The notes below the pieces were generated by a model. The model made no database searches, was not told the origin of the DNA, and worked only from the letters and a program-made list of their open reading frames with translations. Of a stretch of DNA of 25,358 nucleotides, positions 751-21,010 are shown piece by piece. The DNA lies in contig NC_087541.1 of the NCBI RefSeq assembly GCF_963921805.1, forward strand, positions 672,482 through 697,839, given 5' to 3'. The position numbers and the translations under genes are program-made. This stretch comes from Phalacrocorax carbo. Taxonomy: Eukaryota. Positions within the stretch are counted from its first letter, which is position 1, and every line of letters starts with the position of its first letter.

Positions 751-1466
751 ACGCTGTGACAACCCCCCCCCCCACCCCGTAGGGAGCCGCCGCTGATTGG
801 AGGATCCGCGAAGGGGCGGAGACGGCGCGGGGGGGCGGGGCGAGGGGAGACCACGCCCCCCCGGCTCCGCCCCCGCCTGGCAATGGGGTGAAACCCGGCG
901 AAAATGGGGGCGGGGGGGGAGGGGAGGGGCGAGGGGGGGGCGAGGAGGAGGAGGAGGAGGAGGAGGAGGGGGGGAGGAGGAGGAGGAGGAGGGGGGGGAG
1001 GAAGAGAGGCCGCTCCCGAAGAATGGGGTGAAAAAGGGCAAAAAAAAGGGCTGAGCCCCAAAAGGGGGAAAAAAACTGGGAGAAACGGGGCGAAACGGGG
1101 CGGGATCGAGAGCGAGGAGGGGGAGGGGGGGGAGGAGGAGGAGGAGGAAGAGCAGGAGGAGGAAGAAGGAGAGGAAAAAGGCACAAAGCGGCTCGTAAAA
1201 AATGGGGTGGAAAAGGGCAAAATCAAGACTGAGCCCAAGACAGGGAAAAAACTGCTCAAAAATGGGGTGAAAAGGGGCAAAATCGAGAGCGAGGAGGAGG
1301 AGGAGGACGAGAACAAGGATGAAGATCAGGAGGAGGAAGGAGACACAAAGCGGCTCGTAAAAAATGGGGTGAAAAAAGGGCAAAATAAAGACTGAACCCA
1401 AGAAGGACAAAAAGCCGCTCAAAAATAGGGCGAAAAGGGGCAGAATCGAGAGCGAGGAGGAGGAGG

Positions 1467-2201
1467 ATGAAGAGGAGGATGAAGAGGAGGAGGATGAGAT
1501 CAGGAGAAGGGAGGAGGATGAAGATCAGGAGGAGGAAGGAGACACGAAGCCGCTCGCAAAAATTGGGGCGAAAACAGGCCAAAAAAAGGACTGAGCCTGA
1601 GAAAAGCTCTGTGAGAAACGGGGCGAAAAGGGGCAAAATCGAGAGCGAGGAGGAGGAGGAGGAAGAGGAGGAGGAAGAAGAGGAAGAAAGCACAAAGCGG
1701 CTCGTAGAAATTGGGGGAAAAAAGGGCAAAATAAAGACTGAGGCCAAGAAGGAGAAAAAGCCGCTGAAAAATGGGGCGAAAAGGGGCAAAATCGAGAGCG
1801 AGGAGGAGGAGGAGGAGGAGGATGAAGAGGAAGAAGAGGTGAAGGACCCGCCCCGGAAAAACGGGGTGAAAAAGGGCAAAAAGAGGAGCGAGAAGAACCG
1901 AGCTGTGAAAAACGGGGCGAAAAGGGTGAAATTGGAGAGGGAGAAGAAGAGGAAGAGGAGGAGGAGGAGGAGGAAGAGGAGGAAGAGGAGGAGGAGGAAG
2001 GCGACGAGCCGGCACCGGCAAAACGGGCTCAGAAAGGGCAGAAACGGGCCGAGGAGGAGGAGGAGGAGCGGGCAGGGAGGAAGGCCGAGGCCGAAGAGCG
2101 CCCGGGGGGCGGGGAAGAGGAAGAGGAGCCGGGACTCGTCCTCCTCCTCCTCCTCCTCCTCTTCCTCGCTGGAGGAGGAAGAGCGGCGCCCCCCCCGCAA
2201 G
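1467..2201 (+). CDS. HIRIP3: HIRIP3-like large internal exon (3' part): K/E/S-rich repeats [21 protein letters not shown]..., poly-Ser ...SRDSSSSSSSSSSSLEEEERRPPRK, donor AAG|GTAACC at 2202
   Basis: open frame ending at a strong donor; the Ser run followed by an acidic stretch, and the KNGV motif, resemble the HIRIP3 central region; upstream copies (about 900-1460) switch frame at A-homopolymers, so the true 5' boundary is unknown. Confidence 0.45.
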
Positions 2202-2209
2202 GTAACCAG

Positions 2210-4650
2210 TGCGCCCAGTGAGGGGGGGTTTGGGGGGCACTGGGGGCGTTTGGGGGGGTCTCAGGGGGGGTTCGGGGGGTCTGAGGGGGCGTTTGGGGCG
2301 TCTGGGGGGGGTGAGGTGGGGGTTTGGGGGGTCTGAGGGGGCGTTTGGGGGGTCTGAGGGGGGGTTTGGGGGTCTGAGGGGGCGTTCGGGGGGTCTGAGG
2401 GGGGGTTCGGGGGGTCTGAGGGGGGGTTCGGGGGTCTGAGGGGGGTTCGGGGGGTCTGAGGGGGGTTCGGGGGTCTGAGGGGGGTTCGGGGGGTCTGAGG
2501 GGGCGTTTGGGGGGTCTGAGGGGGGGTTCGGGGGTCTGAGGGGGGGTTCGGGGGGTCTGAGGGGGCGTTTGGGGGGTCTGAGGGGGGGTTCGGGGGTCTG
2601 AGGGGGGGTTCGGGGGGTCTGAGGGGGCGTTTGGGGGGTCTGAGGGGGGGTTCGGGGGGTCTGAGGGGGTGTTTGGGGGTCTGAGGGGGCGTTTGGGGGG
2701 TCTGAGGGGGGGTTCGGGGGGTCTGAGGGGGGGTTCGGGGGGTCTGAGGGGGGGTTCGGGGGTCTGAGGGGGGGTTTGGGGGTCTGAGGCGGGGTTCGGG
2801 GGGTCTGAGGGGGCGTTCGGGGGGTCTGAGGTGGGGTTCGGGGGTCTGAGGGGGGGTTTGGGGGGTCTGAGGCGGGGTTCGGGGGTCTGAGGGGGGGTTT
2901 GGGGGGTCTGAGGGGGCGTTCGGGGGGTCTGAGGGGGGGTTGGGGGGGTCTGAGGGGGCGTTTGGGGGGTCTGAGGGGGGGTTCGGGGGGTCTGAGGGGG
3001 GTTTGGGGGTCTGAGGGGGCGTTTGGGGGGTCTGAGGGGGGGTTCGGGGGGTCTGAGGGGGGGTTCGGGGGGTCTGAGGGGGCGTTTGGGGGTCTGAGGT
3101 GGGGTTCGGGGGGTCTGGGGGGGGTTCGGGGGTCTGAGGGGGGTTCGGGGGGTCTCAGGGGGCGTTTGGGGGGTCTGGGGGGGGTGAGGTGGGGTTCGGG
3201 GGGTCTGAGGGGGGATTCAGGGGGTCTGAGGGGGCGTTTGGGGCGTCTGAGGGGGGGTTCGGGGGGTCTGAGGGGGCGTTTGGGGGGTCTAAGGGGGGGT
3301 TCGGGGGTCTGAGGGGGGGTTCGGGGGGTCTGAGGGGGGGTTTGGGGGGTCTGAGGGGGGGTTCGGGGGGTCTGAGGGGGGGTTTGGGGGTCTGAGGGGG
3401 CGTTTGGGGGGTCTGAGGGGGGGTTCGGGGGGTCTGAGGGGGGGTTCGGGGGGTCTGAGGGGGCGTTTGGGGGGTCTGAGGTGGGGTTCGGGGGGTCTGG
3501 GGGGGGTTCGGGGTCTGAGGGGGGGTTCGGGGGGTCTCAGGGGGCGTTTGGGGGGTCTGGGGGGGGTGAGGTGGGGTTCGGGGGGTCTGAGGGGGGATTC
3601 ATGGGGTCTGAGGGGGCGTTTGGGGCGTCTGAGGGGGGGTTCGGGGGGTCTGAGGGGCGTTTGGGGGGTCTGAGGGGGGGTGAGGGGGGTCTGAGGGGGG
3701 GTTTGGGGGTCTGAGGGGGGGTTCGGGGGGTCTGAGGGGGGATTCAGGGGGTCTGAGGGGGCGTTTGGGGGGTCTGAGGGGGCGTTGGGGGTCTGAGGGG
3801 GGGTTCGGGGGGTCTGAGGGGGGGTTCGGGGGGTCTGAGGGGGCGTTTGGGGGGTCTGAGGCGGGGTTCGGGGGTCTGAGGGGGGGTTCGGGGGGTCTGA
3901 GGGGGCGTTTGGGGGGTCTGAGGTGGGGTTCGGGGGGTCTGGGGGGGGTTCGGGGGTCTGAGGGGGGGTTCGGGGGGGTCTCAGGGGGCGTTTGGGGGGT
4001 CTGGGGGGGGTGAGGTGGGTTCGGGGGGTCTGAGGGGGGATTCAGGGGGTCTGAGGGGGCGTTTGGGGGGTCTGAGGGGGGTTCGGGGGGTCTGAGGGGG
4101 CGTTTGGGGGGTCTGAGGGGGGTTCGGGGGGTCTGAGGGGGGGGTTCGGGGGTCTGAGGGGGGGTTTGGGGGGTCTGAGGGGGGGTTCGGGGGGTCTGAG
4201 GGGGTGTTTGGGGGGTCTAAGGGGGGGTTCGGGGGTCTGAGGGGGGGTTCGGGGGGTCTGAGGGGGGGTTCGGGGGGTCTGAGGGGGGTTGGGGGGGTCT
4301 GAGGGGGGGTTCGGGGGGTCTGAGGGGGGGTTGGGGGGGTCTGAGGGGGGGGTTTGGGGGGTCTGAGGGGGGGTTCGGGGGGTCTGAGGGGGCGTTTGGG
4401 GGGTCTGAGGGGGCGTTTGGGGGGTCTGAGGGGGGGGTTCGGGGGGTCTGAGGGGGGGTTTGGGGGTCTGAGGGGGGGTTCGGGGGGTCTGAGAGGGGGT
4501 TCGGGGGGTCTGAGGGGGGGTTCGGGGGGTCTGAGGGGGGGTTCGGGGGGTTTGAGGGGGCGTTTGGGGGCTCTGAGGGGGGGTTCAGGGGGTCTGACAG
4601 GGGGTTCGGGGGGTCTCAGGGGCGTTTGGGGGGTCTCGGGGGGGGGTTGG
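2210..4650. repeat. 20-21-bp G-rich minisatellite (GGGGGGTCTGAGGGGGCGTTT / ..GGGGTTC), about 120 copies, filling the HIRIP3 intron
   Basis: visible tandem periodicity; G-runs of 5 or more in every unit. Confidence 0.9.
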
Positions 4651-4849
4651 GAGCAATTTAGGGGATCGCTGGGTATTTAGGAGGGTCTTTAATCCTGGGG
4701 GGGGCTCAGAAGGTGAATTTGGGGGGGCGGGAGGGGACTCGGGGGGGCAGGGGGGGACTCGGGGGGGGGGCACTGGGGGGCTGGGGGGGTATCGCGGGGC
4801 GGGGCCCCGCGGGTGCAGCCTCCCACGCCCCCCCCCCGCCCCCCCGCAG

Positions 4850-7554: not shown

Positions 7555-7637
7555 CCGGGGCTCGGCGGCGGTCGATGAGGGAGCTCTTAGGGGCGACGGG
7601 CTCGTCGTCGAAGTCGAACTCGGTGGCGACGGGCGGC
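7555..7637 (-). CDS. PAGR1: PAGR1 exon 2: [28 protein letters not shown]
   Basis: acceptor CCTCCAG (complement of 7638-7644); donor G|GTAAGG (gt is the complement of 7554-7553); matches human [24 protein letters not shown]. Confidence 0.8.
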
Positions 7638-7805
7638 CTGGAGGGGGGAGAGGGGCCTTACCCGGGGGTCGGGGGCGGCGGGGGGCGGCGGGGGGCGGCG
7701 GGGGGCACCATCGGGAGGGGGGTCGCGAGGCGTGAGAGCTGCGGGGGGGGATTCTGGAAGTAAGGAAGCGCGAGGCGGGGAGTCGCGAGGTGGACGAGTC
7801 GTGGA

Positions 7806-9230
7806 GTGAGTGAACCGCCAGGGAGGTCGTCGAGCCGCGAGGGAAATGGCGACCTAAGCCGTGAGGTAAATCGCGAGGGAAATCGCGAGGGAAATCGCGA
7901 GGGAAATCGGGAGGGAAACGGCGAGGGAAATGGCGAGGGAAACGGCGAGGGAAATGGCGAGGGAAATCGGGAGGGAAACGGCGAGGGAAATCGGGAGGGA
8001 AACGGCGAGGGAAATGGCGAGGGAAATCGGGAGGGAAACGGCGAGGGAAACGGCGAGGGAAATGGCGACCTAAGCAGTGAGGTAAATCGCGAGCTAAGCC
8101 ATGAGATAAATCATGAGGTAAATCGCGAGCTAAGCCGTGAGGTAAATCGTGAGGCCGTGAGGTAAATTGTGAGGTAAATCATGAGGTAAATCGTGAGGCC
8201 GTGAGGTAAATTGTGAGGTAAATCATGAGGTAAATCGTGAGGCAAGTCGCGAGCTAAGCCGTGAGATAAATTGTGAAGTCAATCATGAGGTAAATCGCGA
8301 GCTAAGCCATGAGGTAAATTGTGAGGTAAATCGTGAGGTAAATTGTGAGGTAAATCATGAGGTAAATCGTGAGGCCGTGAGGTAAATTGTGAGGTAAATC
8401 ATGAGGTAAATCATGACGCAAGTCGCGAGCTAAGCCGTGAGATAAATTGTGAGGTCAATCATGAGGTAAATCGCGAGCTAAGCCGTGAGGTAAATCATGA
8501 GGTAAATCGCAACCTAAGCCATGAGGTAAATTGTGAGGTAAGCCGTGAGGTAAATTGTGAGGTACATCATGAGGTAAATCGTGAGGCCGTGAGGTAAATT
8601 GTGAGGTAAATCATGAGTTAAATCGTGAGGTAAATCGCGAGCTAAGCCGTGAGGTAAATTGTGAGGTAAATCGTGAGGTAAATCGCGAGCTAAGCCGTGA
8701 GGTAGACTGTGAGGTAAATCGTGAGTTAAATCGTGAGGTAAATCACGAGCTAAGCCGTGAGGTAAACTGTGAGGTAAATCGTGAGGTAAATCGCGACCTA
8801 AGCCATGAGGTAAACTGTGAGGTAAATCGTGAGGTAAATTGTGAGGTAAATCATGAGGTAAATCATGAGGCCGTGAGGTAAATCGTGAGGTAAATCGTGA
8901 GGTAAATCGTGAGGTAAATCGTGAGGTAAATCGTGAGGTAAAGCGTGAGGTAAAGCGTGAGGTAAAGCGTGAGCTAAGCCGTGAGATAAATTGTGAGGCA
9001 AATCATGAGGTAAATCGCAAGCTAAGCCGCGAGGTAAATTGTGAGGTACATCGCGAGCTAAGCTGTGAGGTAAATCGCGAGGTAAGCCGTGAGGTAAACT
9101 GTGAGGTAAGCCGTGAGATAAATTGTGAGATAAATCGTGAGCTAAGCCGTGAGCTAAGCCGTGAGGTAAATGGCGAGGTAAATGGCGACCTAAGCCGTGA
9201 GGTAAACAGCGAGGTAAAACGACAACATTT
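7806..9230. repeat. 12-bp minisatellite (CGAGGGAAATGG / GTGAGGTAAATC), about 118 copies, in PAGR1 intron 1; followed by an A-rich tract at 9235-9275
   Basis: visible periodicity; the unit is a multiple of 3, which explains the long REGNGEGN pseudo-ORF. Confidence 0.9.
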
Positions 9231-9308
9231 CCCCTAAAAAAAAAAACCACGCCAAAAAAAAAAAAAAAAAAAAAGGGTGGGTGGGATGTGGGGAATTTTT
9301 GTCTCTTA

Positions 9309-9669
9309 CTTCTCCTCCTCCTCCTCCTCGCTCTCGGGCTGCCCGGCCGAGCGCGGCTCCTCCTCGCTGTCGGGCTCCGGGGTGGGCGCGCGCCGGGGCA
9401 GCGGGACGTGCCGCAGCGGGAGGCTGCCCTGGTCGGCGATGAGCTCGTAGAGCCGCCGGATATCGGCGGGAGGGGGAAGCCATCCCTCGGGGGGTTCCCC
9501 TTCCTCCTCGCTCCAAGGAACCCCCCAGTCCTCCTCCTCTTCCTCGCCGAGGGGCGAGGGGGGCGGGCGGCGGGCGGCTCTCGCCGGCGCTGGCGGCCGG
9601 GGGGTCGGTGACGGCGAGGGAGCGGAGCCCCGACGTCACCTCCGACGCGTCCTCCGGCGGCGCCGTCAT
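9309..9669 (-). CDS. PAGR1: PAGR1 (PA1) exon 1: [22 protein letters not shown]...[78 protein letters not shown]
   Basis: reverse-strand translation matches human PAGR1 ([58 protein letters not shown]); ATG is the complement of 9667-9669; donor AAG|GTAAGA (gt is the complement of 9308-9307); an internal 1-nt frame inconsistency lies near 9540-9600. Confidence 0.78.
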
Positions 9670-9789
9670 GGCCGCCTGCGGGGGGCGGGCCGGTGTCACA
9701 CAGCGGCCCCCAGAAACGCCGGGATTCGCCCCAAAAAATGGGCATGGGGCTAAAGGTGATCCCGGTGTCGCCGTGGCCACCAAGGGGGG

Positions 9790-10880
9790 TCCTGAGGTGG
9801 TGCTGCCGCCCTCAAGGCCACCGTTTTAATGTCTAAGGTGGTCCTGGTGACCCCCTTGGCCACCAAATTGAGCCCCCCAGGGCCACCCTGGTGTCCCCAC
9901 GGCTACCAAATTCTCCCTGTAGCCACCAAATTGAGCCCTGAGGCAATCTGACCACCTACAATGGCCACTGTTTTAAGGTCTAAGGTGGTCCTGGTGACCC
10001 CGTGGCCACCTAATTCAGCTTTGAGGTGATCCTTGTGGCCACCAAATTGAGCCCAAGGCCACCCCGGTGTCCCCACGGCTACCAAATTCTCCCTGTGGCC
10101 ACCAAATTGAGCCCTGAGGCAATCTGGCCACCTACAATGGCCACCGTTTTAAGGTCTAAGGTGGTCCTGGTGACCCTGTGGCCGCCAAATTGAGCCCTCA
10201 GGTCACCAAATTCTCCCTGTGGCCACCAAATTGAGCCCTGAGGCGATCAGCCACCTACAATGGCCACCGTTTTAAGGTCTAAGTTAGTCTTGGTGACCCC
10301 GTGGCCACCAAATTCAGCCCTGAGGTGATCCTTGTGGCCACCAAATTGAGCCCTCAGGCCACCAAATTGAGCCCTGAGGTGAACCCGATGACCCCGTGGC
10401 CACCAAGGTGAGCACTGAGGTGGTCCTGCTGCCCTCAAGGCCACCGATTTAAGGTCTAAGGTGGTCCTGGTGTCCCCGTGGCCACCAAATTCAGCCCCGA
10501 GGCCACCAAATTGAAGCCTGAGGCGATCGGGCCACCTACAATGGCCACCGTTTTAAGGTCTAAGGTGGTCCTGGTGACCCCGTGGCCACCTAATTCAGCT
10601 TTGAGGTGATCCCTGTGGCCACCAAATTGAGCCCCGAGGTGGTCCTGGTGACCCCGTGGCCACCAAATCGAGCCCCAAGGCCACCCCAGTGTCCCCGTGG
10701 CCACCAAGGTGGGTCCTGAAGTGGTCCTGCCACCTCAAGGCCACCATTTAAAGGTCTAACGTGGTCCTGGTGTCCCCATGGCCACCAAATTGAGGCCTGA
10801 GGCCACCAAATTGTCCCTGTGGCCACCAAGTTGAGCCCTGAGGCGATCGGGCCACCTACAATGGCCGCCATTTTAACGCC
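9790..10880. repeat. complex higher-order satellite (about 270-bp units built from GGCCACCAAATTGAGCCCTGAGG and CTACAATGGCCACCGTTTTAAGGTCTAAGGTGGTCCTGGTGACC), about 4 copies
   Basis: repeated blocks visible at 9960, 10130, 10250, 10530 and 10850. Confidence 0.75.
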
Positions 10881-10899
10881 TGAGGTGATCCCGCCAGCC

Positions 10900-11360
10900 C
10901 TGAGCCCCCCCCCACCCCCCCGGCCGCCATCTTGGGTCCCGGCGCCGCCATTTTGAACCCCGACGCCGCCCCCCCTCCCCCTCCCAAACCCCGCCCCCGC
11001 CATTTCCAGCCCGTCACGCACCCCCAGCCCCCCCCCCCCCGCACCCCCCGCACCCGCTACCCCCGCACCGCCCCCCCCCCGCGTCCCCTCCCCGCACTCA
11101 CCCTCCTCGGGCTCCCCCGGGACCGGCGAGGTCAGGGACGGGACCCTCAGCCCCCGCCCGCCATTTTTTCTTCCCGCTCCCGCCTTCCACCGGCTCCCGA
11201 CTGCGCATGCGCGGGGGGAGCAACACGCTTGCGCAGGGCGGCGCCGGTGTGGTGTGCGCATGCGCGGCGCCGGAAGACTCCGCGGTCCCGCCCCTTTGCC
11301 CACGTGTTTGTGCGAGGCCGCACCCTCTTCCGCCCACGGCGCATGCGCGGGGGGAGGAAG
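10900..11360. promoter_or_regulatory. CpG-island promoter module: two YY1 consensus sites (GCCGCCATCTTG 10923-10934, GCCGCCATTTT 10944-10954) plus three perfect NRF1 palindromes GCGCATGCGC (11213-11222, 11266-11275, 11339-11348)
   Basis: exact matches to established YY1 and NRF1 consensus motifs; lies 1.2-1.7 kb upstream of the PAGR1 ATG on the minus strand. Confidence 0.55.
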
Positions 11361-11629
11361 TCGGTGTGTAACCGTTAATTAAGATGGATATTTTTTGCTT
11401 TATTGCTCTGAAATCCAAGCGAATGGGCCCAAAATTAGGGTGGGGGGACGGTCGGGGGCCTCTCCTCGGTGGGCGCGGCCCTTAAAGAGGTAAAAGGCGT
11501 GGGTGGGGCCTGCCTTAAAGGGGACGTCCGTGCCCCAACCGTAATAAAAATGAATAATTCATAAGTAAAAGAAATCAAGTAGTGTCTAAATAAAGTAATT
11601 AATGAGCCCGGGTGGAAGAAAGCTCGGGA

Positions 11630-11870
11630 GGAGGTGGCCCCACCTTATCGCCGCTTTAAGAGATGGTGTTGCCTCTTTAGAGAACGGGTGGGCCCCACCT
11701 TATCGCCGCTTTAAGAGATGGTGTTGCCTCTTTAGAGAACGGGTGGGCCCCACCTTATCGCCGCTTTAAGAGATGGTGTTGCCTCTTTAGAGAACGGGTG
11801 GGCCCCACCTTATCGCCGCTTTAAGGTACGGCGCTGCCCCTTTAAGAGGAGGCGGGCCCGCCGTGTCGCC
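11630..11870. repeat. 57-bp x4 tandem repeat (GGGTGGGCCCCACCTTATCGCCGCTTTAAGAGATGGTGTTGCCTCTTTAGAGAAC) inside an AT-rich island
   Basis: four near-identical copies. Confidence 0.85.
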
Positions 11871-11879
11871 GCTTTAAGG

Positions 11880-12760
11880 CCGCCCCGCCCCGCCCCGCCC
11901 CGCACTGATTGGCTCACTTGGTGTAACAGACGCAGGCGCCGCCAATCAGAGGGAGGAGAAGGAGGAGCGTGGCCAAGGTGGTTCTGCCGCCAGCCAATTG
12001 CCGGCTGGGACCTGCACGCTGCGCCACTGGGCGGCCAATCGGAAAGAGGGGCGGGAGGGCGAGGTCAGGGGAGCGGGAGAACCCCGAACACCCGCCCCGG
12101 GACCCCCTCATGGGCCTGCCCTAAGCCACGCCCACAGAGGGGCTTGGTCCCGCCCACAGAAGTTTGGCCCGCCCCTTCACGTGGCCCCGCCCCGTTGTGG
12201 CCCCGCCCCGCCTGCCAGTGGCCACGCCCATCGCCCTCTAGACCCCACCCACCGCAATGCAGACCGCACCCACAGCCCCTAGACCCCGCCCCTTTCTGCA
12301 CCCCGCCCTCCATTAAAAGGCTGCCTGGTTTTGGCCCCGCCCACAACCCTCAGACCCCGCCCCTTCGCCCAGACACCGTCCAGGTTTTAACCCCGCCCCT
12401 TCCCCGGAAGCCCCGCCCCCAGCCGGGCTCTGGAAGCGGCGAGGAGGGGCGGGGCGTTGCCAAGGGGATGGGGCCCCGCCGACCAATCGCCGCTCGGGCA
12501 GGCACCGGCTCCACCCCCTCCCCTTCAGAATCAGCCAATCGGCTGCGCGTTGGGGGCGGCGCTACGGTCACGTGGGCGGCGCGGGGCCGCTCTAGGCCGC
12601 TGGAGGAACGCGGCTCTATGGTCTGCGGGGCTCCACAGCGCTCCCCCATCCCCCCACCTCCCGCCTCAGCCGCCCCCCACCGCGTCGGCTCAGCAGGGAC
12701 GTCACGGGAGGAGGCGGTGACGTCACGGGGGACGTCACCCTCCCCCCCCCCCAGCCGATG
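11880..12760. promoter_or_regulatory. TATA-less promoter-type block: CCAAT boxes at 11907, 11942, 11994, 12035, 12483 and 12536; about 15 Sp1 GC boxes (CCCCGCCCC, 11881-12420); E-box CACGTG; three tandem CRE/ATF half or full sites (GGGACGTCAC / GTGACGTCAC / GGGACGTCAC, 12697-12740)
   Basis: direct motif matches; orientation and position are consistent with TAOK2 upstream and 5'UTR control and/or divergent transcription with PAGR1. Confidence 0.5.
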
Positions 12761-12799
12761 CCGGCGCCGCCTCGGCCCGCTCCGACCCGCCCCCCTCGC

Positions 12800-13260
12800 C
12801 CCCGCCGCGGCCGCCGCCATTTTTCGCCCTCTCTCAGGAGCCGCTTCCCGCCATTCCCTCCCTTCTCCCCCTGCCCCCGCTCGGCGCATGCGCCGCCCCG
12901 ATCCTGGCCCCGGCAACAGCGCCGCCGCCCAATCCCCGCCCGCCCTGCCCGCGCCGCCCCGCCCCCTCCCGCCCCCTCAGCGCTCCAGCCAATCGCCCGC
13001 TTCCTTCCCCACCGGCTCGCGCGCCCATTGGCCGAGATCACCCGCCCCGCGCACGCCCCGCCCACCTCCTGGCGGGCCCGCCCGCCCTGTGCCTTCACCC
13101 GCCGCCGATCTGCGCATGCGCGGAAGGGGGTCGGGGGCGCGGCGCGCATGCGCCGCAGGGCCCGCTCGGGCTGCCACTTCCGGTCCGGCCGCCAGCGCCA
13201 TCTTAGATCCGGGGGCTCCCCCACCCCCTTCCCCGGGGGCTCCCCCCGCTCGCCGCCGCC
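12800..13260. promoter_or_regulatory. second NRF1/YY1 module: GCGCATGCGC at 12884-12893, 13112-13121 and 13144-13153; YY1-like GCCGCCATTTTT (12811-12822) and CGCCATCTTAG (13193); CCAAT at 12989 and 13027
   Basis: motif matches; candidate TSS region for a non-coding first exon of TAOK2 (possible donor CCG|GTGAGG near 13446). Confidence 0.4.
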
Positions 13261-13479
13261 GCCGCTTTGGGGTTAAAGCCCGGCTTTTTGGGTATCCCGG
13301 AGCCGCCCCTCCCCCCCCTCCCGGGAAGGAGGGATTCGGGGGGAGGTGGGGGCCCCCCCCCGGAGCTGGAGCCGCCCGGGGGGGGGGGGCGGACGAGGGG
13401 GGCTGGGCGACCCCCGCGGCCCGACGGAGCCGGAGCCGGAGCCGGTGAGGGGCGACCGGGGGCTTGGGGGGGGCCAGGG

Positions 13480-15500
13480 CCGGCGGCACTTGGGGGGCAG
13501 CGGCACTTGGGGGGCAGAGCCGGGGCCCTTGGGGCACTTGGGGCTCGGTAGGACTTGGGGGGCAGAGCCGGGGCCCTTGGGGCACTTGGGGCTCGGTAGG
13601 ACTTGGGGGGCAGAGCCGGGGCCCTTGGGGCACTTGGGGGTCGGTAGGACTTGGGGGGCAGAGCCGGGGTACTTGGGGCTCGGTAGGACTTGGGGGGCAG
13701 AGCCGGGGCCCTTGGGGCACTTGGGGCAGTTTAGGACTTGGGGGGCAGAGCCGGGGCCCTTGGGGCACTTGGGGCTCGGTAGGACTTGGGGGGCAGAGCC
13801 GGGGCCCTTGGGGCACTTGGGGCTCGGTAGGACTTGGGGGGCAGAGCCGGGGCCCTTGGGGCACTTGGGGGTCGGTAGGACTTGGGGGGCAGAGCCGGGG
13901 CCCTTGGGGCACTGGTGGGGCAGACTCTGGGTCTCTTGGGGGGCAACGCTTGGGTCACTTATGGGATCTGTGGGGCACTTGGGGGGGGACCCTGGGGCAA
14001 CTGTGGGGCAGAGCCTAGATCTTAAGTTCTCTTTAGCACTTGTGCTAAAGCACTTGGGGGGCAGCGCTTGGGTCTCTTGGGGGGCAGCGCTTGGGTCTCT
14101 TGTGGGATCTGTGGGGCAGAGCGTGGGGCACTTGGGGGGGCCCCATGGTCCCTTTTGGGAGAGAGCCTGAACCTTGGTCACTTGTGGGGCAGAGCCGGGG
14201 GCACTTGGGGGGCAGCAAGGCTTGTGGGGCAGAGCCTGGACCTTGAGTTCTCTTTAGCACTTGTGGGGCGGAGCGTGGGGCACTTGTGGGGCAGCGGGGC
14301 TTGGGGGGAGGGCCTGGACCCCAGGGACTCTTGTGGGGCAGCGCTTGGGTCGCTTGTGGATTCTGTGGGGCAGAATGTGGGTCACTTGGGGGGCAGAGCC
14401 TGAACCTCTGGAGCACTTGTGGGGCAGGGTGTGGGTCCCTTGGGGGCAGCGTGTGGGTCTCTTGTGGGGCAGTGCTTGGGTAGCTTGTGGGATCTGTGGG
14501 ACCGAGTGTGGGTCACTTGGGGGGCAGAGCCTGGGGCCCTGGGTCACATGTGGGGCAGGGTGTGGGTCACGTGTGGGGCAGGGCCTGTACCCTTGGGTCA
14601 GTTGTGGGGCAGGGCGTGGGTCACTTGGGGGGCAGAGCCTGTACCCCTGGGTCAGTTGTGGGGCAGGGCGTGGGTCACTTGGGGGGCAGAGCCTGTACCC
14701 CTGGGTCAGTTGTGGGGCAGGGCGTGGGTCACGTGTGGGGCAGAGCCTGAACCTTGTGTCACGTGTGGGGCAGGGCGTGGGTCACGTGTGGGGCAGGGCC
14801 TGAACCTTGGGTCACTTGTGGGGCAGGGTGTGGGTCACGTGTGGGATCTGTGGGGCTGAGTGTGGGTCACTTGGGGGGCAGAGCCTGGGGCCTTGGGTCA
14901 CTTGGGGGTCAGAGCCTGGTTCAGTTGTGGGGCAGGGTGTGGGTCACGTGTGGGGCAGAGCCTGTATCCCTGGGTCAGTTGTGGGGCAGAGCCTGCTTCA
15001 GTTGTGGGGCAGGGCCTGTATCCCTGGGTCACTTGGGGGGCAGAGCCTGCTTCAGTTGTGGGGCAGGGCCTGTATCCCTGGGTCACTTGGGGGGCAGAGC
15101 CTGCTTCAGTTGTGGGGCAGAGCCTGTATCCCTGGGTCACTTGGGGGGCAGAGCCTGGTTCAGTTGTGGGGCAGGGCGTGGGTCCCTTGTGGGGCAGAGC
15201 CCGAACCTTGGGTCACTTGGGGGGCAGGGCCTGGGTCACTTGGGGGGCAGAGCCTGCTTCAGTTGTGGGGCAGGGCATGGGTCACGTGTGGGGCAGAGCC
15301 CGAACCTTGGGTCACTTGGGGGGCAGGGCCTGGTTCAGTTGTGGGGCAGGGTGTGGGTCACGTGTGGGGCAGAGCCCGAACCTTGGGTCACTTGGGGGGC
15401 AGGGCCTGGTTCAGTTGTGGGGCAGGGCGTGGGTCACGTGTGGGGCAGAGCCCGAACCTTGGGTCACTTGGGGGGCAGGGCGTGGGTCACGTGTGGGGCA
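13480..15500. repeat. about 60-bp minisatellite family (CTTGGGGCACTTGGGGCTCGGTAGGACTTGGGGGGCAGAGCCGGGGCC, then GGGTCACGTGTGGGGCAGAGCCTGAACCTTGGGTCACTTGTGGGGCAGGGCGTG), about 30 copies
   Basis: visible periodicity. Confidence 0.85.
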
Positions 15501-15638
15501 GAGCCTGCACCCAAGCCACCCCCCCCGCCAGCAGCAGCACTCGGGTGACCCGTGGGGCCCCCCTGCGCCCCGTGGGGCAGCCCTGGCTGACGCGCGGCTC
15601 TGCCCCACGGCCGCTGTGGGGCGGGGGCAGGCGCCGCC

Positions 15639-15758
15639 ATGCCCTGGGGACGCCCGCGGGGCCCCCCCGGGGCCGGGCTCTTCCTGCAGGGGGACCCCGA
15701 GCGGCTCTTCGGGGACCTGCGCGAGATCGGCCACGGCAGCTTCGGCGCCGTCTACTTC
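15639..15758 (+). CDS. TAOK2: TAOK2 coding exon 1: start codon in gccgccATGc Kozak context, [40 protein letters not shown], kinase subdomain I (Gly loop)
   Basis: ATG at 15639; translation matches the TAO kinase N-terminus ([22 protein letters not shown] in human); phase-0 donor GTGAGT at 15759. Confidence 0.88.
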
Positions 15759-15764
15759 GTGAGT

Positions 15765-17290
15765 GCCCCACAAGTGCCCCCCCGCGCCCCACGGGTGCCC
15801 CCACGCACACCCCCGAGCCCCACAAGTGCCCCCACAAACACCCCGTGCCCCACGGGGGCCCCCCCGCGCCCCACAAGTGCCCACCACACACACCATGTGC
15901 CCCACAGAGGCCCACCCGTGCCCCACAAGTGCCCCCACAAACACCCCGTGCCCCACGGGGGCCCCCCCGCGCCCCACAAGTGCCCCCACACACACCCCCG
16001 GGTGCCCCCCTGCTCCCCACAAGTGCCCTCACAAACACCCGGTGCCCCCCTGCTCCCCACAAGTGCCCCCACAAACACCCCGTGCCCCACGGGGGCCCCC
16101 CCGCGCCCCACAAGTGCCCGCCACACACACCATGTGCCCCACGGGGGCCCACCCGTGCCCCACAAGTGCCCCCACACACACCCCCGGGTGCCCCCCTGCT
16201 CCCCACAAGTGCCCCCACACACACCCCCGTGCCCCCCGGATGCCCCCCTGCGCCCCACAAGTGCCCCACACACACACCCCGCGCCCCACGGGGGCCCCCC
16301 CCACGGCCCCCCCCATGCCCCCACACACACCCCGTGCCCCACGGGTGCCCCCCCGTGCCCCCACTCACACCCCCGCGCCCCACGGGTGCCCCCCACACAC
16401 ACCCCGCGCCCCACGGGTGCCCCCACATGGGTGCCTCATAGGTGCCCCCCTGCGCCCCATGAGTGCCCCTCCGCGCCCCATGAGTGTCCCCACACCCCCC
16501 TGAGCCCCACAAGTGCCCCCACAAACACCCCGTGCCCCATGGGGGCCCCCCCGCGCCCCACAAGTGCCCCCACACACACCCCCGGGTGCCCCCCTGCTCC
16601 CCACAAGTGCCCCCACAAACACCCGGTGCCCCCCTGCTCCCCACAAGTGCCCCCACAAACACCCCGTGCCCCACGGGGGCCCCCCCGCGCCCCACAAGTG
16701 CCCCCACACACACCCCCGGGTGCCCCCCTGCTCCCCACAAGTGCCCCCACAAACACCCGGTGCCCCCCTGCTCCCCACAAGTGCCCCCACAAACACCCCG
16801 TGCCCCCCGGATGCCCCCCTGCGCCCCACAAGTGCCCCCCACACACACCCCGCGCCCCACGGGGGCCCCCCCACGGCCCCCCCCATGCCCCCACACACAC
16901 TCCGTGCCCCACGGGTGCCCCCCCCCCACCCCCCACAAGTGCCCCCCCACACACCCCACACCTCACGGGTGCCCCTCCCGCGCCCCACGGGTGCCCCCCC
17001 GTGCCCCCACTCACACCCCCGCGCCCCACGGGTGCCCCCACACACCCCGCGTCCCACAAGTGCCCCCACATGGGTGCCTCATAGGTGCCCCCCCGCGCCC
17101 CATGAGTGCCCCACACCCCCCCACACACCCCCGTGTCCCACGGGTGCCCCCCCCACACACACCCCGTGCCCCACAGGTGCCCCCACACACACTCTGCGCC
17201 CCACGGGTGCCCTCAAACACACCCCCGTGCCCCACAAGTGCCCCCTACACACCCCCCGCGCCCCCCAAGTGCCCCCCGCGCCCCCCGTCT
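15765..17290. repeat. about 50-bp C-rich minisatellite (CCCCACAAGTGCCCCCACAAACACCCCGTGCCCCACGGGGGCCCCCCCGCG) filling TAOK2 intron 1
   Basis: visible periodicity. Confidence 0.85.
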
Positions 17291-19109: not shown

Positions 19110-21010
19110 GACCCACGGCGCGACCCACGGCTGCCCCGCGGCGCGGCCCGGGGCTCGCTCTGCCCCATGGTGCGACTCACGGCATGACCCACGGCGCGGC
19201 CCGGGGCTCGCGCTGTCCCTCCTCTGCCCCACGGCGCGGCCCGGGGCTCGCGCTGTCCCTCCTCTGCCCCACAGTGTGACCCACGGCGCGGCCCGGGGCT
19301 CGCGCTGTCCCTCCTCTGCCCCACGGTGTGACCCACGGCGCGGCCCGGGGCTCGCGCTGTCCCTCCTCTGCCCCACGGTGTGACCCACGGCGCGGCCCGG
19401 GGCTCGCGCTGTCCCTCCTCTGCCCCACGGTGTGACCCACGGCGCGGCCCGGGGCTCGCGCTGTCCCTCCTCTGCCCCACGGTGTGACCCACGGCGCGGC
19501 CCGGGGCTCGCGCTGTCCCTCCTCTGCCCCACGGCGCGGCCCGGGGCTCGCGCTGTCCCTCCTCTGCCCCACGGCTGCCCCACGTCGTGACCCACAGCAC
19601 GGCCCAGGGCTTGCTCTGCGCCACAGCGCGACCCACAGCTGCCCCACAGCACAGCCCAGGGCTTGCACTGTCCCTCCTCTGCCCCACGGCGCGACCCCCG
19701 GCTGCCCCACAGCACAGCCCAAGGCTTGCACTGTCCCTCCTCTGCCCCACGGCACAACCCGGGGCTCGCTCTGCCCCATGGCTGCCCCATGGCGCGACCC
19801 ACGGCCGCCCCGTGGCGCAGCCCGGGGCTCACACTGTCCTTCCTCTGCCCCACGGCTGCCCCATGGCGTGACCTGGGGCTCGCGCTGTCCCTTCTCTGCC
19901 CCACGGCGTGACCCACAGCGCAGCCCGGGGCTCGCTTTGCCCCACGGCACGACCCACGGCGCAGCCTGGGGCTCACACCGTGATTCTGACCCACGGCTGC
20001 CCCACGGCGTGACCCACAGCTTGCGCTGTCCTTTCTCTGCCTCGCGCCTGCCCCACAGCACAACCCACGGCTGCCCCACAGCGCGACCCAGGGCTCACAC
20101 TGTCCCTCTTCTGCCCCATGGCTGCCCCACGGCACACCCTGGGCCTCGTGCTGTCCCTTCTGTGCCCCACGGCTGCCCCATAGCGTGCCCCGGCCTCTGC
20201 CCGCCCCACATCTGCCCCACATTCGCCTGTCCCTCCGCGTGTGTGTTCCCGGCGCCCCACGGATCCCCTCCCCCACCCCACTGATCCCCCTTTCTCTGCC
20301 CCACCGGCCCCTCCCCCGCCCCACTGATCCCCCTCCCCCACCCCACCGGCCCCTCCCCCCACTGGCCCCCCTTTTCCCACCCCCTCCCCTTGACCCCTCT
20401 GCTGCTGCTCCCCTCCCCCACCCTGTTGACCCCTCCCCCGATTCCTCCCCTCCCCCACTGACCCCCCTTCCCCCACTGACCCCTCCCCCACCCCGACCCC
20501 TCCCCCACTGACCCCTTCCCCCCACCGACCCCTCCCCGACCCCTCCCCCACTGACCCCCCTTCCCCCCACCAACCCCTCCCCCACCCCCGACCCCTCCCC
20601 TCCCCCACTGACCCACCTACCCCACCGACCCCTCCCCCACCCTGTTGACCCCTCCCCCGACTCCTCCCCTCCCCCACTGACCCCCTTCCCCCACCGACCC
20701 CACCCCGACCCCTCCCCCATTGACCCCCTTTTCCCCCCCCACCCTTCCCTCCCTCCTCCCCTGCCCCACCCCTCCCCCACCCCGCTGCCCCTCCCCTTTT
20801 TTCCCCGCCCCCTCCCCCCACCGGCCCCTCCCCCACCACTGACCCCTCCCCCACCCACCCCCCCCCCGCCCCATTGACCTCCCTTTTCCTCCCCCCACCC
20901 CCCCTTCCCCACCCTTTCCCCCCGGCCCCCCCACCCTTTCCCCCCGGCCCCTCCCCCACCCCCGCCCCTCCCCCACCCCGCCCCTCCCCCCGCCCCTCCC
21001 CCCGCCCCTC
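19110..21010. repeat. TAOK2 intron 5: about 60-bp repeat (TGACCCACGGCGCGGCCCGGGGCTCGCGCTGTCCCTCCTCTGCCCCACGGTG, about 14 copies, 19110-20200), then a C-rich CCCCTCCCCCACC array (20200-21010)
   Basis: visible periodicity. Confidence 0.8.

What the first reader, a model, noticed from the sequence alone, without database searches (positions are those of the whole stretch)
10900..13260. Dense housekeeping-type regulatory block between PAGR1 and TAOK2
Within 2.4 kb there are six perfect NRF1 palindromes GCGCATGCGC (11213, 11266, 11339, 12884, 13112, 13144) and several YY1 consensus elements (GCCGCCATCTTG 10923; GCCGCCATTTT 10944 and 12811). There are also three tandem CRE-like sites (12697-12740), about 8 CCAAT boxes and about 15 CCCCGCCCC boxes. 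This looks like two or three CpG-island promoters: PAGR1 on the minus strand (ATG at 9669), TAOK2 non-coding 5' exons, or an unannotated transcript. A possible first-exon donor CCG|GTGAGG lies near 13446.
Basis: partly seen in the sequence, partly recalled or inferred. Interest (0 to 1): 0.5.

Follow-up and report, generated by a model that had tools for sequence, protein, structure and literature searches.

The report
Two bird promoters flanking gene debris
The motif-dense stretch is an ordinary CpG island in a bird genome holding two conserved, back-to-back promoters (PAGR1 and TAOK2), separated by the decayed tail of a third gene left by an old rearrangement.

Summary
There are six perfect NRF1 palindromes (two coordinates were 10 bp off). 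YY1, CRE, extended NF-Y and GC-box motifs all exceed local dinucleotide shuffles. The 2.6-kb CpG island (10891-13480, GC 0.715, CpG o/e 0.82) lies between CpG-poor tandem arrays.

It is not one regulatory block. Comparison with alligator, ostrich, two cuckoos and two passerines resolves three parts.

(1) 11102-11360 is the PAGR1 promoter with a non-coding first exon on the minus strand. NRF1 sites are followed by a sense YY1 site and the donor AGG|GTGAGT. This grammar is conserved back to alligator.

(2) About 12880-13444 is the TAOK2 promoter with a non-coding first exon on the plus strand. An invariant ETS-N12-YY1 module and the donor CCG|GTGAGG are shared with the cuckoos.

(3) 11361-12064 is a collinear relic of the 3' end of a Sushi/CUB (SEZ6L2-like) gene that sits upstream of PAGR1 in ostrich and alligator.

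Four of the nine CCAAT boxes belong to that relic exon. Most GC boxes sit in a periodic array. 12065-12880 is unassigned, and no TSS data exist. This is an ordinary kind of element and of low interest.

The parts
9310..9675 (-). PAGR1 first coding exon (ATG at 9669), preceded by the acceptor ccccccgcag|gcggccATG (AG at 9677-9676)
   Evidence: Translations. Pfam PAXIP1_C at E 7.8e-40. Orthologue N-termini. The acceptor is shared with alligator (ctgcag|gcagccATG) and ostrich (ttttcag|gaaATG).
9676..11101 (-). Putative PAGR1 5'UTR intron. Its body is a CpG-poor tandem array (9740-10890) of 21-bp-based units. The promoter-proximal units (10864, 10923, 10944) keep the YY1 consensus GCCGCCAT.
   Evidence: TRF output. 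CpG o/e is 0.33. Unit identity is 15/21, reached by 2/5000 shuffles, and there are 18 GCCACCAA copies in the array body. The cuckoos carry the same unit family after the homologous donor.
11102..11200 (-). Putative non-coding PAGR1 exon 1. It contains a sense-oriented YY1 site (11159-11167) and a mini-uORF (11164-11147, MAGGG*), and ends at the donor AGG|GTGAGT (last exon base 11102). The 5' end is only inferred.
   Evidence: This is the best minus-strand donor in the interval, scoring 9.9 against 7.3 for the next best. Alignment A2 shows conserved ATGGCGG, GCTGAGGG..TCCCG and GG|GTGAGTG. The uORF is conserved in 7 species. A GC-skew switch falls at about 11200.
11203..11360 (-). PAGR1 upstream promoter: NRF1 at 11203, 11256 and 11339, ETS CCGGAAG at 11270, a GC box at 11287 and E-box CACGTG at 11301
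   Evidence: Multiple perfect NRF1 palindromes occur at the homologous position in alligator (4), ostrich (7) and the cuckoos (1 each). The core CGCGCATGCGCAG is invariant in alignment A2.
11361..11635 (-). AT-rich relic of the 3'UTR end of the Sushi/CUB (SEZ6L2-like) gene, with the poly(A) signal AATAAA at 11404-11399
   Evidence: Window 11434-11399 aligns to ostrich L001 8967-9002 (TTTTGGG..CATT.GCTTGG..AGCAATAAA) at E 7e-5. It is collinear with the TM-exon match.
11636..11878 (.). A 55-bp tandem repeat (4.5 copies) derived from the intron that follows the TM exon (motif CTTAAAGCGGCGATAAGG)
   Evidence: TRF and repeat finder output. Each unit matches ostrich intron 7849-7877.
11918..12027 (-). 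Relic transmembrane exon of the Sushi/CUB (SEZ6L2-like) gene, encoding VAQRAGPSRQLAGGRTTLATLLLLLPLIGGACVCYTK. The acceptor ..gcccag| and the donor CAA|GTGAGCCAATC are kept. The CCAAT boxes at 11908, 11942, 11994 and 12035 lie in or beside it.
   Evidence: Translation. tblastn at E 1e-7 to 2e-7. blastn of window 12064-11808 against ostrich 7611-7877 at E 1e-24. The relic is 57.5% identical to ostrich with a 3-residue deletion, against 72.5% for alligator versus ostrich. The next exon is 100% conserved between alligator and ostrich but absent here.
12065..12460 (.). GC-box array: about 11 CCCGCCC cores on the + strand, mostly 16-20 or 34-36 bp apart. Origin unassigned.
   Evidence: Positions. 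Degenerate direct-repeat families D4, D9, D11, D19 and D20. CpG o/e 0.64 and skew -0.29. No homologue was found in the other loci.
12461..12760 (.). Unassigned promoter-like cluster: CCAAT at 12483 and 12535, E-box at 12569, and three CRE half-sites or full sites at 12698-12738
   Evidence: GACGTCAC 4 against 0.01 expected. Not alignable to ostrich or the cuckoos.
12761..13154 (+). TAOK2 upstream promoter region: YY1 at 12813, NRF1 at 12884, 13112 and 13144, CCAAT at 12929, 12989 and 13027, and several GC boxes
   Evidence: This sub-block has the highest CpG o/e of the island, 1.11. The NRF1 sites here are not shared with the cuckoos, which have CCAAT and a GC box at the corresponding place.
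13174..13204 (+). Conserved TAOK2 core module CCACTTCCGG-N11-GCGCCATCTT (ETS/GABP site plus YY1 site)
   Evidence: Invariant in alignment A1. The pattern CTTCCGG-N12-CGCCAT occurs once each in the window, L002 and L003, always beside the kinase gene, and in none of the five loci that lack it.
13155..13444 (+). Putative non-coding TAOK2 exon 1, ending at the donor CCG|GTGAGG (GT at 13445-13446). The 5' end is only inferred.
   Evidence: This is the best plus-strand donor in 13100-13700. The cuckoos have GG|GTGAG at a comparable distance after the module. A GC-skew switch falls at 13100-13200.
13445..15630 (+). Putative TAOK2 intron 1, almost entirely CpG-poor tandem repeats (13483-15507)
   Evidence: TRF output. 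CpG o/e is 0.26. The acceptor ggcag|gcgccgccATG is conserved as cacag|cgATG and cgcag|cgATG in the cuckoos.
15631..15758 (+). TAOK2 ATG exon (ATG at 15639; ...[17 protein letters not shown]|gtgagt)
   Evidence: (Pkinase at E 8e-27).

Best explanation
The block is one continuous, germline-unmethylated CpG island in a bird genome. The PAGR1 protein is closest to penguin, stork and albatross. The island holds two separate, divergently oriented housekeeping-type core promoters about 2 kb apart, not a single regulatory unit.

Left core, minus strand, PAGR1: three NRF1 palindromes plus ETS, GC-box and E-box sites lie upstream. Initiation is inferred at about 11170-11200, between the last NRF1 site and a sense-oriented YY1 site. 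A roughly 100-nt non-coding exon carries a 5-codon uORF and ends at AGG|GTGAGT. A 1.4-kb intron filled with a 21-bp-unit minisatellite follows, and the acceptor lies 6 nt before the ATG.

Right core, plus strand, TAOK2: CCAAT and GC boxes and two NRF1 palindromes lie upstream. Initiation is inferred at about 13155-13195, at an ETS-YY1 module. A roughly 290-nt non-coding exon ends at CCG|GTGAGG. A 2.2-kb repeat-filled intron follows, and the acceptor lies 8 nt before the ATG.

The spacer between the cores contains the decayed 3' end of a Sushi/CUB (SEZ6L2-like) gene: a transmembrane exon, intron-derived repeats, and the 3'UTR end with its poly(A) signal. In alligator and ostrich that gene lies intact directly upstream of PAGR1. 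So a rearrangement in the lineage leading to the cuckoos and this bird brought TAOK2 head-to-head with PAGR1. The cuckoos have since lost the debris, and their cores are 0.4-0.8 kb apart.

Shown: the motifs, their enrichment, the CpG island, the homologies and the conservation of motif order and splice sites. Inferred: TSS positions, factor occupancy, exon usage and the direction of the rearrangement.
For: Motif enrichment against local shuffles. The CpG island is bounded by CpG-depleted arrays.

Gene identities: PAXIP1_C at 7.8e-40 and Pkinase at 8e-27, bird PAGR1 orthologues, and best named kinase hits that are TAO2-like.

PAGR1 side: 4 (alligator), 7 (ostrich), 1+1 (cuckoos) and 3 (window) perfect NRF1 palindromes are followed by a sense YY1 site. 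Alignment A2 shows invariant CGCGCATGCGCAG, ATGGCGG, GCTGAGGG..TCCCG and the donor GG|GTGAGTG. That donor is by far the best in the interval. The acceptor next to the ATG is shared with alligator and ostrich. The uORF at the YY1 ATG is kept in 7 species.

TAOK2 side: the block CCACTTCCGG..GCCGC..GCGCCAT(C/T)TT is invariant, with identical 19-bp offset in the window and both cuckoos, and is found only next to the kinase gene. The donor is the best plus-strand one. The acceptor of the ATG exon is conserved.

GC-skew sign switches fall at about 11200 and about 13100-13200. This matches the mirror composition of divergent promoters described in PMC3082894.

Relic: collinear matches to ostrich at E 1e-24 and 7e-5, TM exon at E 1e-7, and loss of the otherwise 100%-conserved tail exon. 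The order Sushi/CUB gene then PAGR1 is seen in both alligator and ostrich.

Literature: SP1, NFY, ETS, NRF1, CRE/E-box and YY1 are six of the nine 'cardinal' proximal-promoter motifs (PMC3820735). Bidirectional promoters are enriched in GABPA, NRF1, NFY and YY1 (PMC3082894). NRF1 sites sit preferentially upstream of the TSS and YY1 sites immediately downstream (PMC11269187).
Against: No transcript, CAGE, methylation or ChIP data were available, so TSSs, exon 1 boundaries and factor binding are inferred from sequence and conservation only.

The three NRF1 palindromes on the TAOK2 side are not shared with the cuckoos. 12065-12880, one third of the block, has no homologue in any locus fetched, and its role is unknown.

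Comparison species are few and distant. The closest relatives were unusable: the penguin contig is mostly Ns and the stork is not on record.

The SEZ6L2 name rests on Sushi/CUB domains, a TM exon and 16p11.2 synteny. A name-bearing search failed.

The donor PWM was built from consensus frequencies recalled from memory.
Confidence: 0.75

Rival explanations
1. There is a third promoter inside the block. A minus-strand TSS near 12830-12880, or a TSS associated with the CCAAT/E-box/CRE cluster at 12461-12760, drives an unannotated transcript. This would be compatible with the main explanation and would add to it.
For: NRF1 at 12884 followed about 60 bp later by a minus-strand-sense YY1 site at 12813 repeats the PAGR1 grammar. 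The CCAAT boxes at 12929, 12989 and 13027 would then sit at about -60 to -170. The + strand is strongly C-rich from 12600 to 13100, as expected downstream of a minus-strand TSS. The CRE, E-box and CCAAT motifs at 12461-12760 are far above chance.
Against: The segment shows no cross-species conservation. No strong minus-strand donor follows; the best scores 4.7. No ORF there hits Pfam and no Rfam family matches. Divergent CpG-island promoters routinely make unstable upstream antisense RNA without a gene.
Confidence: 0.25
2. The whole 2.4 kb acts as one classical bidirectional promoter shared by PAGR1 and TAOK2.
For: The genes are head-to-head. It is one uninterrupted CpG island. It contains the motif set typical of bidirectional promoters (PMC3082894). 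In the cuckoos the two cores are only about 0.4 and 0.8 kb apart.
Against: In this window the inferred TSSs are about 1.97 kb apart, beyond the <1 kb definition quoted in PMC3082894. Each core has its own GC-skew switch and its own conserved grammar. The PAGR1 core keeps the same grammar in species where the upstream neighbour is a different gene, either tail-to-head (alligator, ostrich) or VKOR (passerines). So the PAGR1 core does not depend on TAOK2.
Confidence: 0.1
3. The motif density is a by-product of extreme GC content and tandem duplication in a repeat-rich microchromosome-like region, not of regulatory function.
For: The window is 70-80% GC and full of minisatellites. It holds 70 CCCCGCCCC overall. 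Two or three YY1 sites are minisatellite units. Four CCAAT boxes belong to an exon relic. The GC boxes at 12065-12460 are periodic.
Against: All six NRF1 palindromes, four of five GACGTCAC hits and the only ETS-N12-YY1 module in the window fall inside the island. They exceed dinucleotide-preserving shuffles of the island itself. The core motifs are conserved in position, order and spacing across species separated since the bird-crocodilian split. CpG is retained only here.
Confidence: 0.08

Closest known systems
Vertebrate CpG-island 'housekeeping' promoters built from cardinal motifs (NRF1, YY1, ETS/GABP, NF-Y, SP1, CRE/E-box)
   Same: It is GC-rich with CpG o/e of 0.8 or more and has no TATA box. 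It carries homotypic NRF1 clusters upstream, with ETS and YY1 sites at or just after the inferred TSS. Six of the nine cardinal motifs of PMC3820735 are present. The NRF1-upstream, YY1-downstream arrangement matches PMC11269187.
   Different: Nothing differs in kind. The local peculiarities are first introns filled with minisatellites and an unusually long island (2.6 kb) that includes gene debris.
Bidirectional (head-to-head) promoters
   Same: The gene pair is divergent. The sequence is enriched in GABPA/ETS, NRF1, NFY and YY1 sites and shows mirror GC skew (PMC3082894). The cuckoo orthologues meet the <1 kb criterion.
   Different: In this window the two inferred TSSs are about 2 kb apart, and each has its own skew switch. 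The pairing is evolutionarily recent: alligator and ostrich lack it, and the passerines pair PAGR1 with VKOR.
Unitary gene relics or pseudo-exons left at evolutionary rearrangement breakpoints
   Same: The relic is a collinear fragment (exon, intron, 3'UTR and poly(A) signal) of a gene that is intact at the same place in outgroups. It shows relaxed constraint: 57.5% identity, a 3-codon deletion and loss of a tail exon that is 100% conserved elsewhere.
   Different: The remaining exon still has an open frame and both splice sites, and it sits inside an apparently unmethylated CpG island. Whether an intact copy of the gene exists elsewhere in this genome is unknown.

Membership tests
CpG island (Gardiner-Garden and Frommer type criteria, recalled from general knowledge) | Length over 200 bp, G+C over 50%, and CpG observed/expected over 0.6 | tested here: met
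   10891-13480 is 2590 bp with GC 0.715 and o/e 0.82. Every sub-block has o/e of 0.64 or more, while the flanking arrays are 0.33 and 0.26.
CpG-island core promoter | A transcription start site inside the island | not testable with these tools
   No CAGE, RNA-seq or EST data were available. The TSSs are inferred from NRF1-upstream and YY1-downstream bracketing (PMC11269187), conserved donors and GC-skew switches.
CpG-island core promoter | Cardinal proximal-promoter motifs enriched and positioned around the start site | tested here: met
   NRF1 6 against 0.01 expected, YY1 5 against 0.09, NF-Y consensus 6 against 0.33, CRE 4 against 0.01 and GC box 12 against 1.7. The motif list is from PMC3820735.
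CpG-island core promoter | Evolutionary conservation of the motif arrangement at the orthologous gene | tested here: met
   PAGR1 side: alligator, ostrich, two cuckoos and two passerines. TAOK2 side: two cuckoos only.
Bidirectional promoter | Two genes head-to-head on opposite strands | tested here: met
   PAGR1 is on the minus strand (ATG 9669) and TAOK2 on the plus strand (ATG 15639). The layout is the same in Cuculus and Phaenicophaeus.
Bidirectional promoter | TSSs less than 1 kb apart (definition quoted in PMC3082894) | tested here: not met
   The inferred TSSs at about 11170-11200 and about 13155-13195 are about 1.97 kb apart. The ATGs are 5.97 kb apart. The criterion is met in Cuculus (about 0.4 kb) and Phaenicophaeus (about 0.8 kb). 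The TSSs are inferred, not measured.
NRF1 binding site | Palindromic GCGCATGCGC consensus | tested here: met
   Six exact matches. Actual binding was not tested.
SEZ6L2 (SEZ6 family) gene | CUB and Sushi extracellular domains, a single TM segment and a short conserved cytoplasmic tail | tested here: not met
   Only a TM-exon homologue is present in the window. No CUB or Sushi exon was found there. The tail exon, 100% identical between ostrich and alligator, is absent. It is therefore filed as a relic of such a gene, not as a member. The intact ostrich and alligator genes carry Sushi and CUB Pfam hits. The SEZ6L2 name itself is inferred from synteny (PMC11211608), and one search gave no named hit.
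TAOK2 (rather than TAOK1 or TAOK3) | Orthology of the kinase gene | tested here: inconclusive
   It has a Pkinase domain. The best named hits are TAO2-like at 82% and 78%, against 70-76% for the TAO1 and TAO3 hits. It is linked to the 16p11.2 genes PAGR1 and a SEZ6L2-like relic. The cuckoo neighbour is 1238 aa. No phylogeny was made.

The most novel reading that the evidence does not exclude
The debris between the two promoters is not inert. A third, minus-strand start site near 12830-12880 (NRF1 at 12884 followed by sense YY1 at 12813, the same grammar as PAGR1) produces a lineage-specific transcript. That transcript runs through or splices into the still-open transmembrane-exon relic (12027-11918) and ends at the retained poly(A) signal of the old gene (11404-11399). 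A new lncRNA or micropeptide gene would then have been born from the tail of a broken SEZ6L2-like gene. A related reading is that the PAGR1 CpG island is a reused evolutionary breakpoint, with three different upstream neighbours in archosaurs.
Probability: 0.12. Interest if true: 0.45.

Novelty: new member of a known kind. Interest (0 to 1): 0.25.

Why it matters
In itself this matters little. It is a textbook pair of CpG-island promoters using the standard NRF1, YY1, ETS, NF-Y, SP1 and CRE vocabulary.

Its use is practical. It gives testable first-exon and TSS models for two genes (PAGR1 and TAOK2) that lie in GC-rich, repeat-filled avian sequence where short-read assemblies fail. The penguin contig, for example, is mostly Ns.

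It also shows that motif counting alone over-reads such regions. A third of the 'regulatory' motifs here are coding debris or minisatellite units.

The comparative by-products are modestly interesting for avian genome evolution. The NRF1-then-YY1 grammar and the YY1-embedded mini-uORF of PAGR1 have persisted since the bird-crocodilian ancestor through at least two changes of upstream neighbour. A datable gene relic marks one of those rearrangements.

Tried and rejected
(1) Hidden coding gene in the block. Seven long ORFs in 10590-13448 gave no Pfam hit. They are GC-rich and P/R/G-rich reading-frame artefacts.

(2) Structured RNA gene. There was no Rfam match in 9000-16000 at E<=1 beyond weak chance hits, and none in the whole window at gathering score. 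The only tRNA call lies elsewhere and is unsupported.

(3) Homology of 12040-12900 to the ostrich intron upstream of the TM exon. The local alignment score was 20, against shuffles of 15.8 +/- 2.2 with a maximum of 23, so this was rejected.

(4) Tail exons of the Sushi/CUB gene (NPLYEAG, DTREYEVSI) in the window. None was found even at E=50.

(5) Other Sushi/CUB exons in the window. tblastx gave only low-complexity repeat hits apart from the TM exon.

(6) TM-exon relic in the cuckoos. It is absent.

(7) Fetching bird TAOK2 loci through a protein search. Only short fragments from fish and invertebrates were returned.

(8) Naming the Sushi/CUB gene from its C-terminus. Only unnamed short proteins were returned.

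(9) Closest relatives. The stork protein is not on record, the penguin contig is 48% N with nothing upstream, and Zonotrichia is not on record.

(10) Alternative TAOK2 acceptor at about 15532 (ccccgccag|cag). It lies in a window-specific insertion relative to the cuckoos, so the conserved AG at 15629-15630 is preferred.

(11) ZNF143/ACTACA, TATA and Clus1-type motifs. There is no ACTACAAT or TATAAA in the window.
Full report
OBSERVATION

The window is eukaryotic, 55-80% GC and dominated by minisatellites. In 10900-13260 the claimed motifs exist.

GCGCATGCGC occurs six times, at 11203, 11256, 11339, 12884, 13112 and 13144. These are the only copies in 25 kb, and the expectation is 0.01.

I shuffled 10900-13260 alone 1000 times, preserving dinucleotides. 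All of the following are beyond every shuffle:
- NRF1: 6 against 0.01
- CGCCATNTT: 5 against 0.09
- RRCCAATSR: 6 against 0.33
- GACGTCAC: 4 against 0.01
- CCCCGCCCC: 12 against 1.7
- CCCGCCC: 28 against 7.5

Bare CCAAT is only marginal (9 against 4.2). GC boxes are not specific to the block: the window holds 70 CCCCGCCCC.

CpG observed/expected is 0.6-1.2 from about 10800 to about 13600. It drops to 0.05-0.4 in the tandem arrays on both sides. Formally, 10891-13480 is a 2590-bp CpG island with GC 0.715 and o/e 0.82.

FLANKING GENES

The minus strand encodes PAGR1. The ATG is at 9669, with conserved segments [47 protein letters not shown] and [36 protein letters not shown]. Pfam PAXIP1_C matches at E 7.8e-40. 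The best database matches are birds: penguin 89%, stork 86% and albatross 82%.

The plus strand encodes a TAO kinase starting at 15639, [40 protein letters not shown]|gtgagt. Pkinase matches at E 8e-27. The best named hits are TAO2-like. The TAOK2 assignment is further supported by linkage to other 16p11.2 genes (PMC11211608), but I did not build a tree.

No ORF inside the block hits Pfam and no Rfam family matches.

COMPARATIVE LOCI

I fetched PAGR1 loci with 10-kb flanks from the following species:
- ostrich (L001)
- Cuculus (L002)
- Phaenicophaeus (L003)
- Ammospiza (L004)
- a penguin (L005, mostly N)
- alligator (L006)
- a turtle (L007)
- Motacilla (L008)

The gene upstream of PAGR1 differs by lineage:
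- In alligator and ostrich it is a Sushi/CUB gene on the same strand.
- In both cuckoos it is a long Pkinase gene head-to-head, as in the window.
- In both passerines it is VKOR head-to-head.

PAGR1 CORE

Perfect NRF1 palindromes lie upstream of PAGR1 in alligator (4), ostrich (7), each cuckoo (1) and the window (3). In each case a YY1 site in the PAGR1-sense orientation follows.

In alignment A2 the following align between the window and the cuckoos, with the NRF1/YY1 part also aligning in ostrich:
- the block CGCGCATGCGCAG
- the YY1 core ATGGCGG
- GCTGAGGG..TCCCG
- a donor GG|GTGAGTG

In the window that donor is AGG|GTGAGT, with its last exon base at 11102. It is the best minus-strand donor in the interval, scoring 9.9 against 7.3 for the next. 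The PWM was built from recalled consensus frequencies, so the scores are approximate.

An acceptor lies immediately before the ATG in the window (ccccccgcag|gcggccATG), alligator (ctgcag|gcagccATG) and ostrich (ttttcag|gaaATG).

So PAGR1 most likely has a non-coding first exon (about 11200-11102) and a 5'UTR intron (11101-9676).

The ATG inside the YY1 site opens a 4-8-codon uORF in all seven archosaurs examined. This fits the site being transcribed.

NRF1 sites prefer positions upstream of the TSS, and YY1 sites prefer positions just downstream (PMC11269187). This brackets the TSS at about 11170-11200, where the GC skew also changes sign.

The 1.15-kb array at 9740-10890 is built on a 21-bp unit, GCCACCAAATTGAGCCCTGAG. 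This unit matches the unit of the short repeat at 10923-10970, GCCGCCATCTTGAACCCCGAC, at 15 of 21 positions. Only 2 of 5000 shuffles reach that.

CpG-intact GCCGCCAT occurs only at the island edge (10864, 10923, 10944). The array body has 18 GCCACCAA and 4 GCCACCGT copies.

The YY1 elements at 10923 and 10944 therefore lie downstream of the donor, inside the putative intron. They are the proximal, undecayed units of a minisatellite. The cuckoos carry the same unit family right after the homologous donor.

TAOK2 CORE

In alignment A1 the block CCACTTCCGG..GCCGC..GCGCCAT(C/T)TT is invariant between the window (13174-13204) and both cuckoos.

The exact pattern CTTCCGG-N12-CGCCAT occurs once in each of these three sequences, always next to the kinase gene. 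It occurs in none of the five other loci.

A GG|GTGAG donor follows in all three. In the window the best plus-strand donor is CCG|GTGAGG, with its last exon base at 13444.

The ATG exon and an AG 2-8 nt before the ATG are conserved. This gives an intron 13445-15630 that is almost entirely CpG-poor tandem repeat.

The GC skew changes sign at 13100-13200. The two NRF1 palindromes just upstream (13112, 13144) and the one at 12884 are not shared with the cuckoos, which have a CCAAT and a GC box instead.

THE MIDDLE IS GENE DEBRIS

The window's 'CCAAT cluster' (11865-12039) matched ostrich L001 7635-7827. Reading the ostrich sequence shows this to be the transmembrane exon of the Sushi/CUB gene:
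- The TM exon reads [40 protein letters not shown]|gtgagccaatcgg.
- Two tail exons follow (..NPLYEAG; DTREYEVSI*).
- An AT-rich 3'UTR ending in AGCAATAAA follows those.
- The PAGR1 NRF1 cluster comes next.

The window's minus strand encodes VAQRAGPSRQLAGGRTTLATLLLLLPLIGGACVCYTK|gtgagccaatcag, with the acceptor retained (tblastn E 1e-7).

The matches are collinear:
- Window 12064-11808 aligns to ostrich 7611-7877 at E 1e-24.
- Window 11434-11399 aligns to the ostrich 3'UTR end, including AATAAA, at E 7e-5.
- The 55-bp x 4.5 repeat (11636-11878) is an amplification of the intronic CTTAAAGCGGCGAT(A/G)AGG.

The tail exon is 100% identical between ostrich and alligator but is absent from the window. 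The window's TM exon is 57.5% identical to ostrich with a 3-codon deletion, while alligator is 72.5% identical. No other Sushi/CUB exon is in the window.

This is a relic, not a working gene end.

It explains four of the nine CCAAT boxes:
- 11942 encodes L-I-G-G.
- 11994 encodes Q-L-A.
- 11908 is intron positions +5 to +9 after the donor.
- 12035 lies about 10 nt before the acceptor.

The sites at 11908, 11942 and 12035 are conserved in ostrich as part of the exon and its splice-site flanks.

Alligator and ostrich share the order Sushi/CUB gene then PAGR1. So the head-to-head TAOK2-PAGR1 pairing is derived, and the relic marks the breakpoint. The cuckoos keep only scattered CCCCTTTAAG motifs, and their cores are 0.4-0.8 kb apart.

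The SEZ6L2 name is inferred from domains, the TM exon and synteny. A search meant to name the gene returned only unnamed fragments.

WHAT REMAINS UNASSIGNED

12065-12460 is a periodic GC-box array with CpG o/e 0.64.

12461-12760 holds two CCAAT boxes, an E-box and three CRE sites. 12761-12900 holds a YY1 site (12813, sense for the minus strand) and an NRF1 site (12884).

None of this aligns to ostrich or the cuckoos.

NRF1 at 12884 followed by YY1 at 12813 repeats the PAGR1 grammar on the minus strand. The + strand is C-rich from 12600 to 13100. A third, minus-strand start site is therefore possible. However, no good donor follows it and nothing else supports a gene there.

COMPARISON WITH WHAT IS KNOWN

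The motif set is six of the nine 'cardinal' proximal-promoter motifs (PMC3820735). It is the set enriched at bidirectional promoters, and the mirror skew is also described there (PMC3082894).

The window meets the CpG-island criteria and the head-to-head criterion. With inferred TSSs about 1.97 kb apart, it does not meet the <1 kb definition of a bidirectional promoter.

The PAGR1 core keeps its grammar with three different upstream neighbours, so the two cores are best seen as independent.

VERDICT

The element is an ordinary CpG island with two conserved divergent promoters.

Its motif count is inflated by a gene relic and by minisatellites. It is a new instance of a well-known kind, and interest is low. 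The side findings have modest comparative value: the rearrangement relic, the YY1-unit minisatellite, and the conserved NRF1-YY1-uORF leader of PAGR1.

All TSS, exon-usage and binding statements are inferences awaiting CAGE, RNA-seq and ChIP.

Noticed in passing
window 11164-11147 (minus strand); L006 9479; L001 9617; L002 9549; L003 8732; L004 6819; L008 8662: The ATG inside the sense-oriented YY1 site of the PAGR1 leader opens a 4-8-codon mini-uORF in all seven archosaurs examined: MAGGG*, MATSQPGA*, MAAGRQ*, MAAPGS*, MAARGS*, MAVGS* and MAAGS*. An in-frame stop is always close despite the GC-rich context.
   Followed up: partly
L001, L006 against L002, L003, window against L004, L008 (upstream of PAGR1): The gene immediately upstream of PAGR1 differs by lineage. 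It is a Sushi/CUB (SEZ6L2-like) gene tail-to-head in alligator and ostrich, TAOK2 head-to-head in two cuckoos and the window, and VKOR head-to-head in two passerines. The PAGR1 CpG island may be a reused breakpoint. Alternatively the passerine copy, named PAGR1A-like, may be a paralogue.
   Followed up: partly
window ~9556-9600 (minus strand): The first coding exon of PAGR1 needs a 1-nt frame shift within a C/G run to join the conserved N-terminus ([20 protein letters not shown]) to the conserved [11 protein letters not shown] segment. This is probably a homopolymer-length error in the assembly rather than a real frameshift.
   Followed up: partly
L002 (Cuculus canorus) 20147-21002: A tandem array of about 36 units spaced 21-25 bp apart, each carrying a YY1-like CGCCATNTT, with CpG o/e of about 1. 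It lies downstream of PAGR1. It appears to be a CpG-intact YY1-motif minisatellite related in unit length to the window's intron array.
   Followed up: no
window 24371-24464 (+): ARAGORN calls a 94-nt tRNA-Arg(CCT) inside a tandem-repeat tract of the TAOK2 gene body. Rfam finds nothing at gathering score anywhere in the window, so this is very likely a false positive.
   Followed up: yes
window 7860-9218 and 2219-4651: There are very long minisatellites: a 12-bp unit x ~115 filling the PAGR1 coding intron, and a 21/42-bp G-rich unit x ~58-117 further left. Nearly every intron in the window, including those of TAOK2, is built of such arrays. They generate many long spurious ORFs.
   Followed up: no
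window 900-2340 (+): There are repeated Lys/Glu-rich ORFs (..KNGVKKGK..EEEEEE..) on the plus strand, convergent with PAGR1. By position they could correspond to the 946-973-aa gene without Pfam hits that follows PAGR1 on the opposite strand in ostrich and Phaenicophaeus (in alligator a 347-aa gene next to INO80E). There was no Pfam hit here.
   Followed up: partly
L001 (ostrich) 7581-7640 and 9180-9232: Ostrich has a CpG-rich E-box/CRE/CCAAT cluster just upstream of the TM exon, inside the Sushi/CUB gene. It is absent in alligator. Ostrich also has a (GA)n microsatellite of about 25 repeats within the PAGR1 NRF1 cluster.
   Followed up: no
window 11470-11880; L002 ~9200-9480; L003 ~7950-8700; L001 7810-7900 and 8640-8830: A short motif of the form CCCCTTTAAG(A/G) or CTTAAAGGGGCAACG recurs many times. 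It appears in the ostrich Sushi/CUB intron and 3'UTR, in the window's relic, and between the two promoter cores of both cuckoos. Its meaning is unknown; it resembles a degenerate CArG-like or AT-core element.
   Followed up: no
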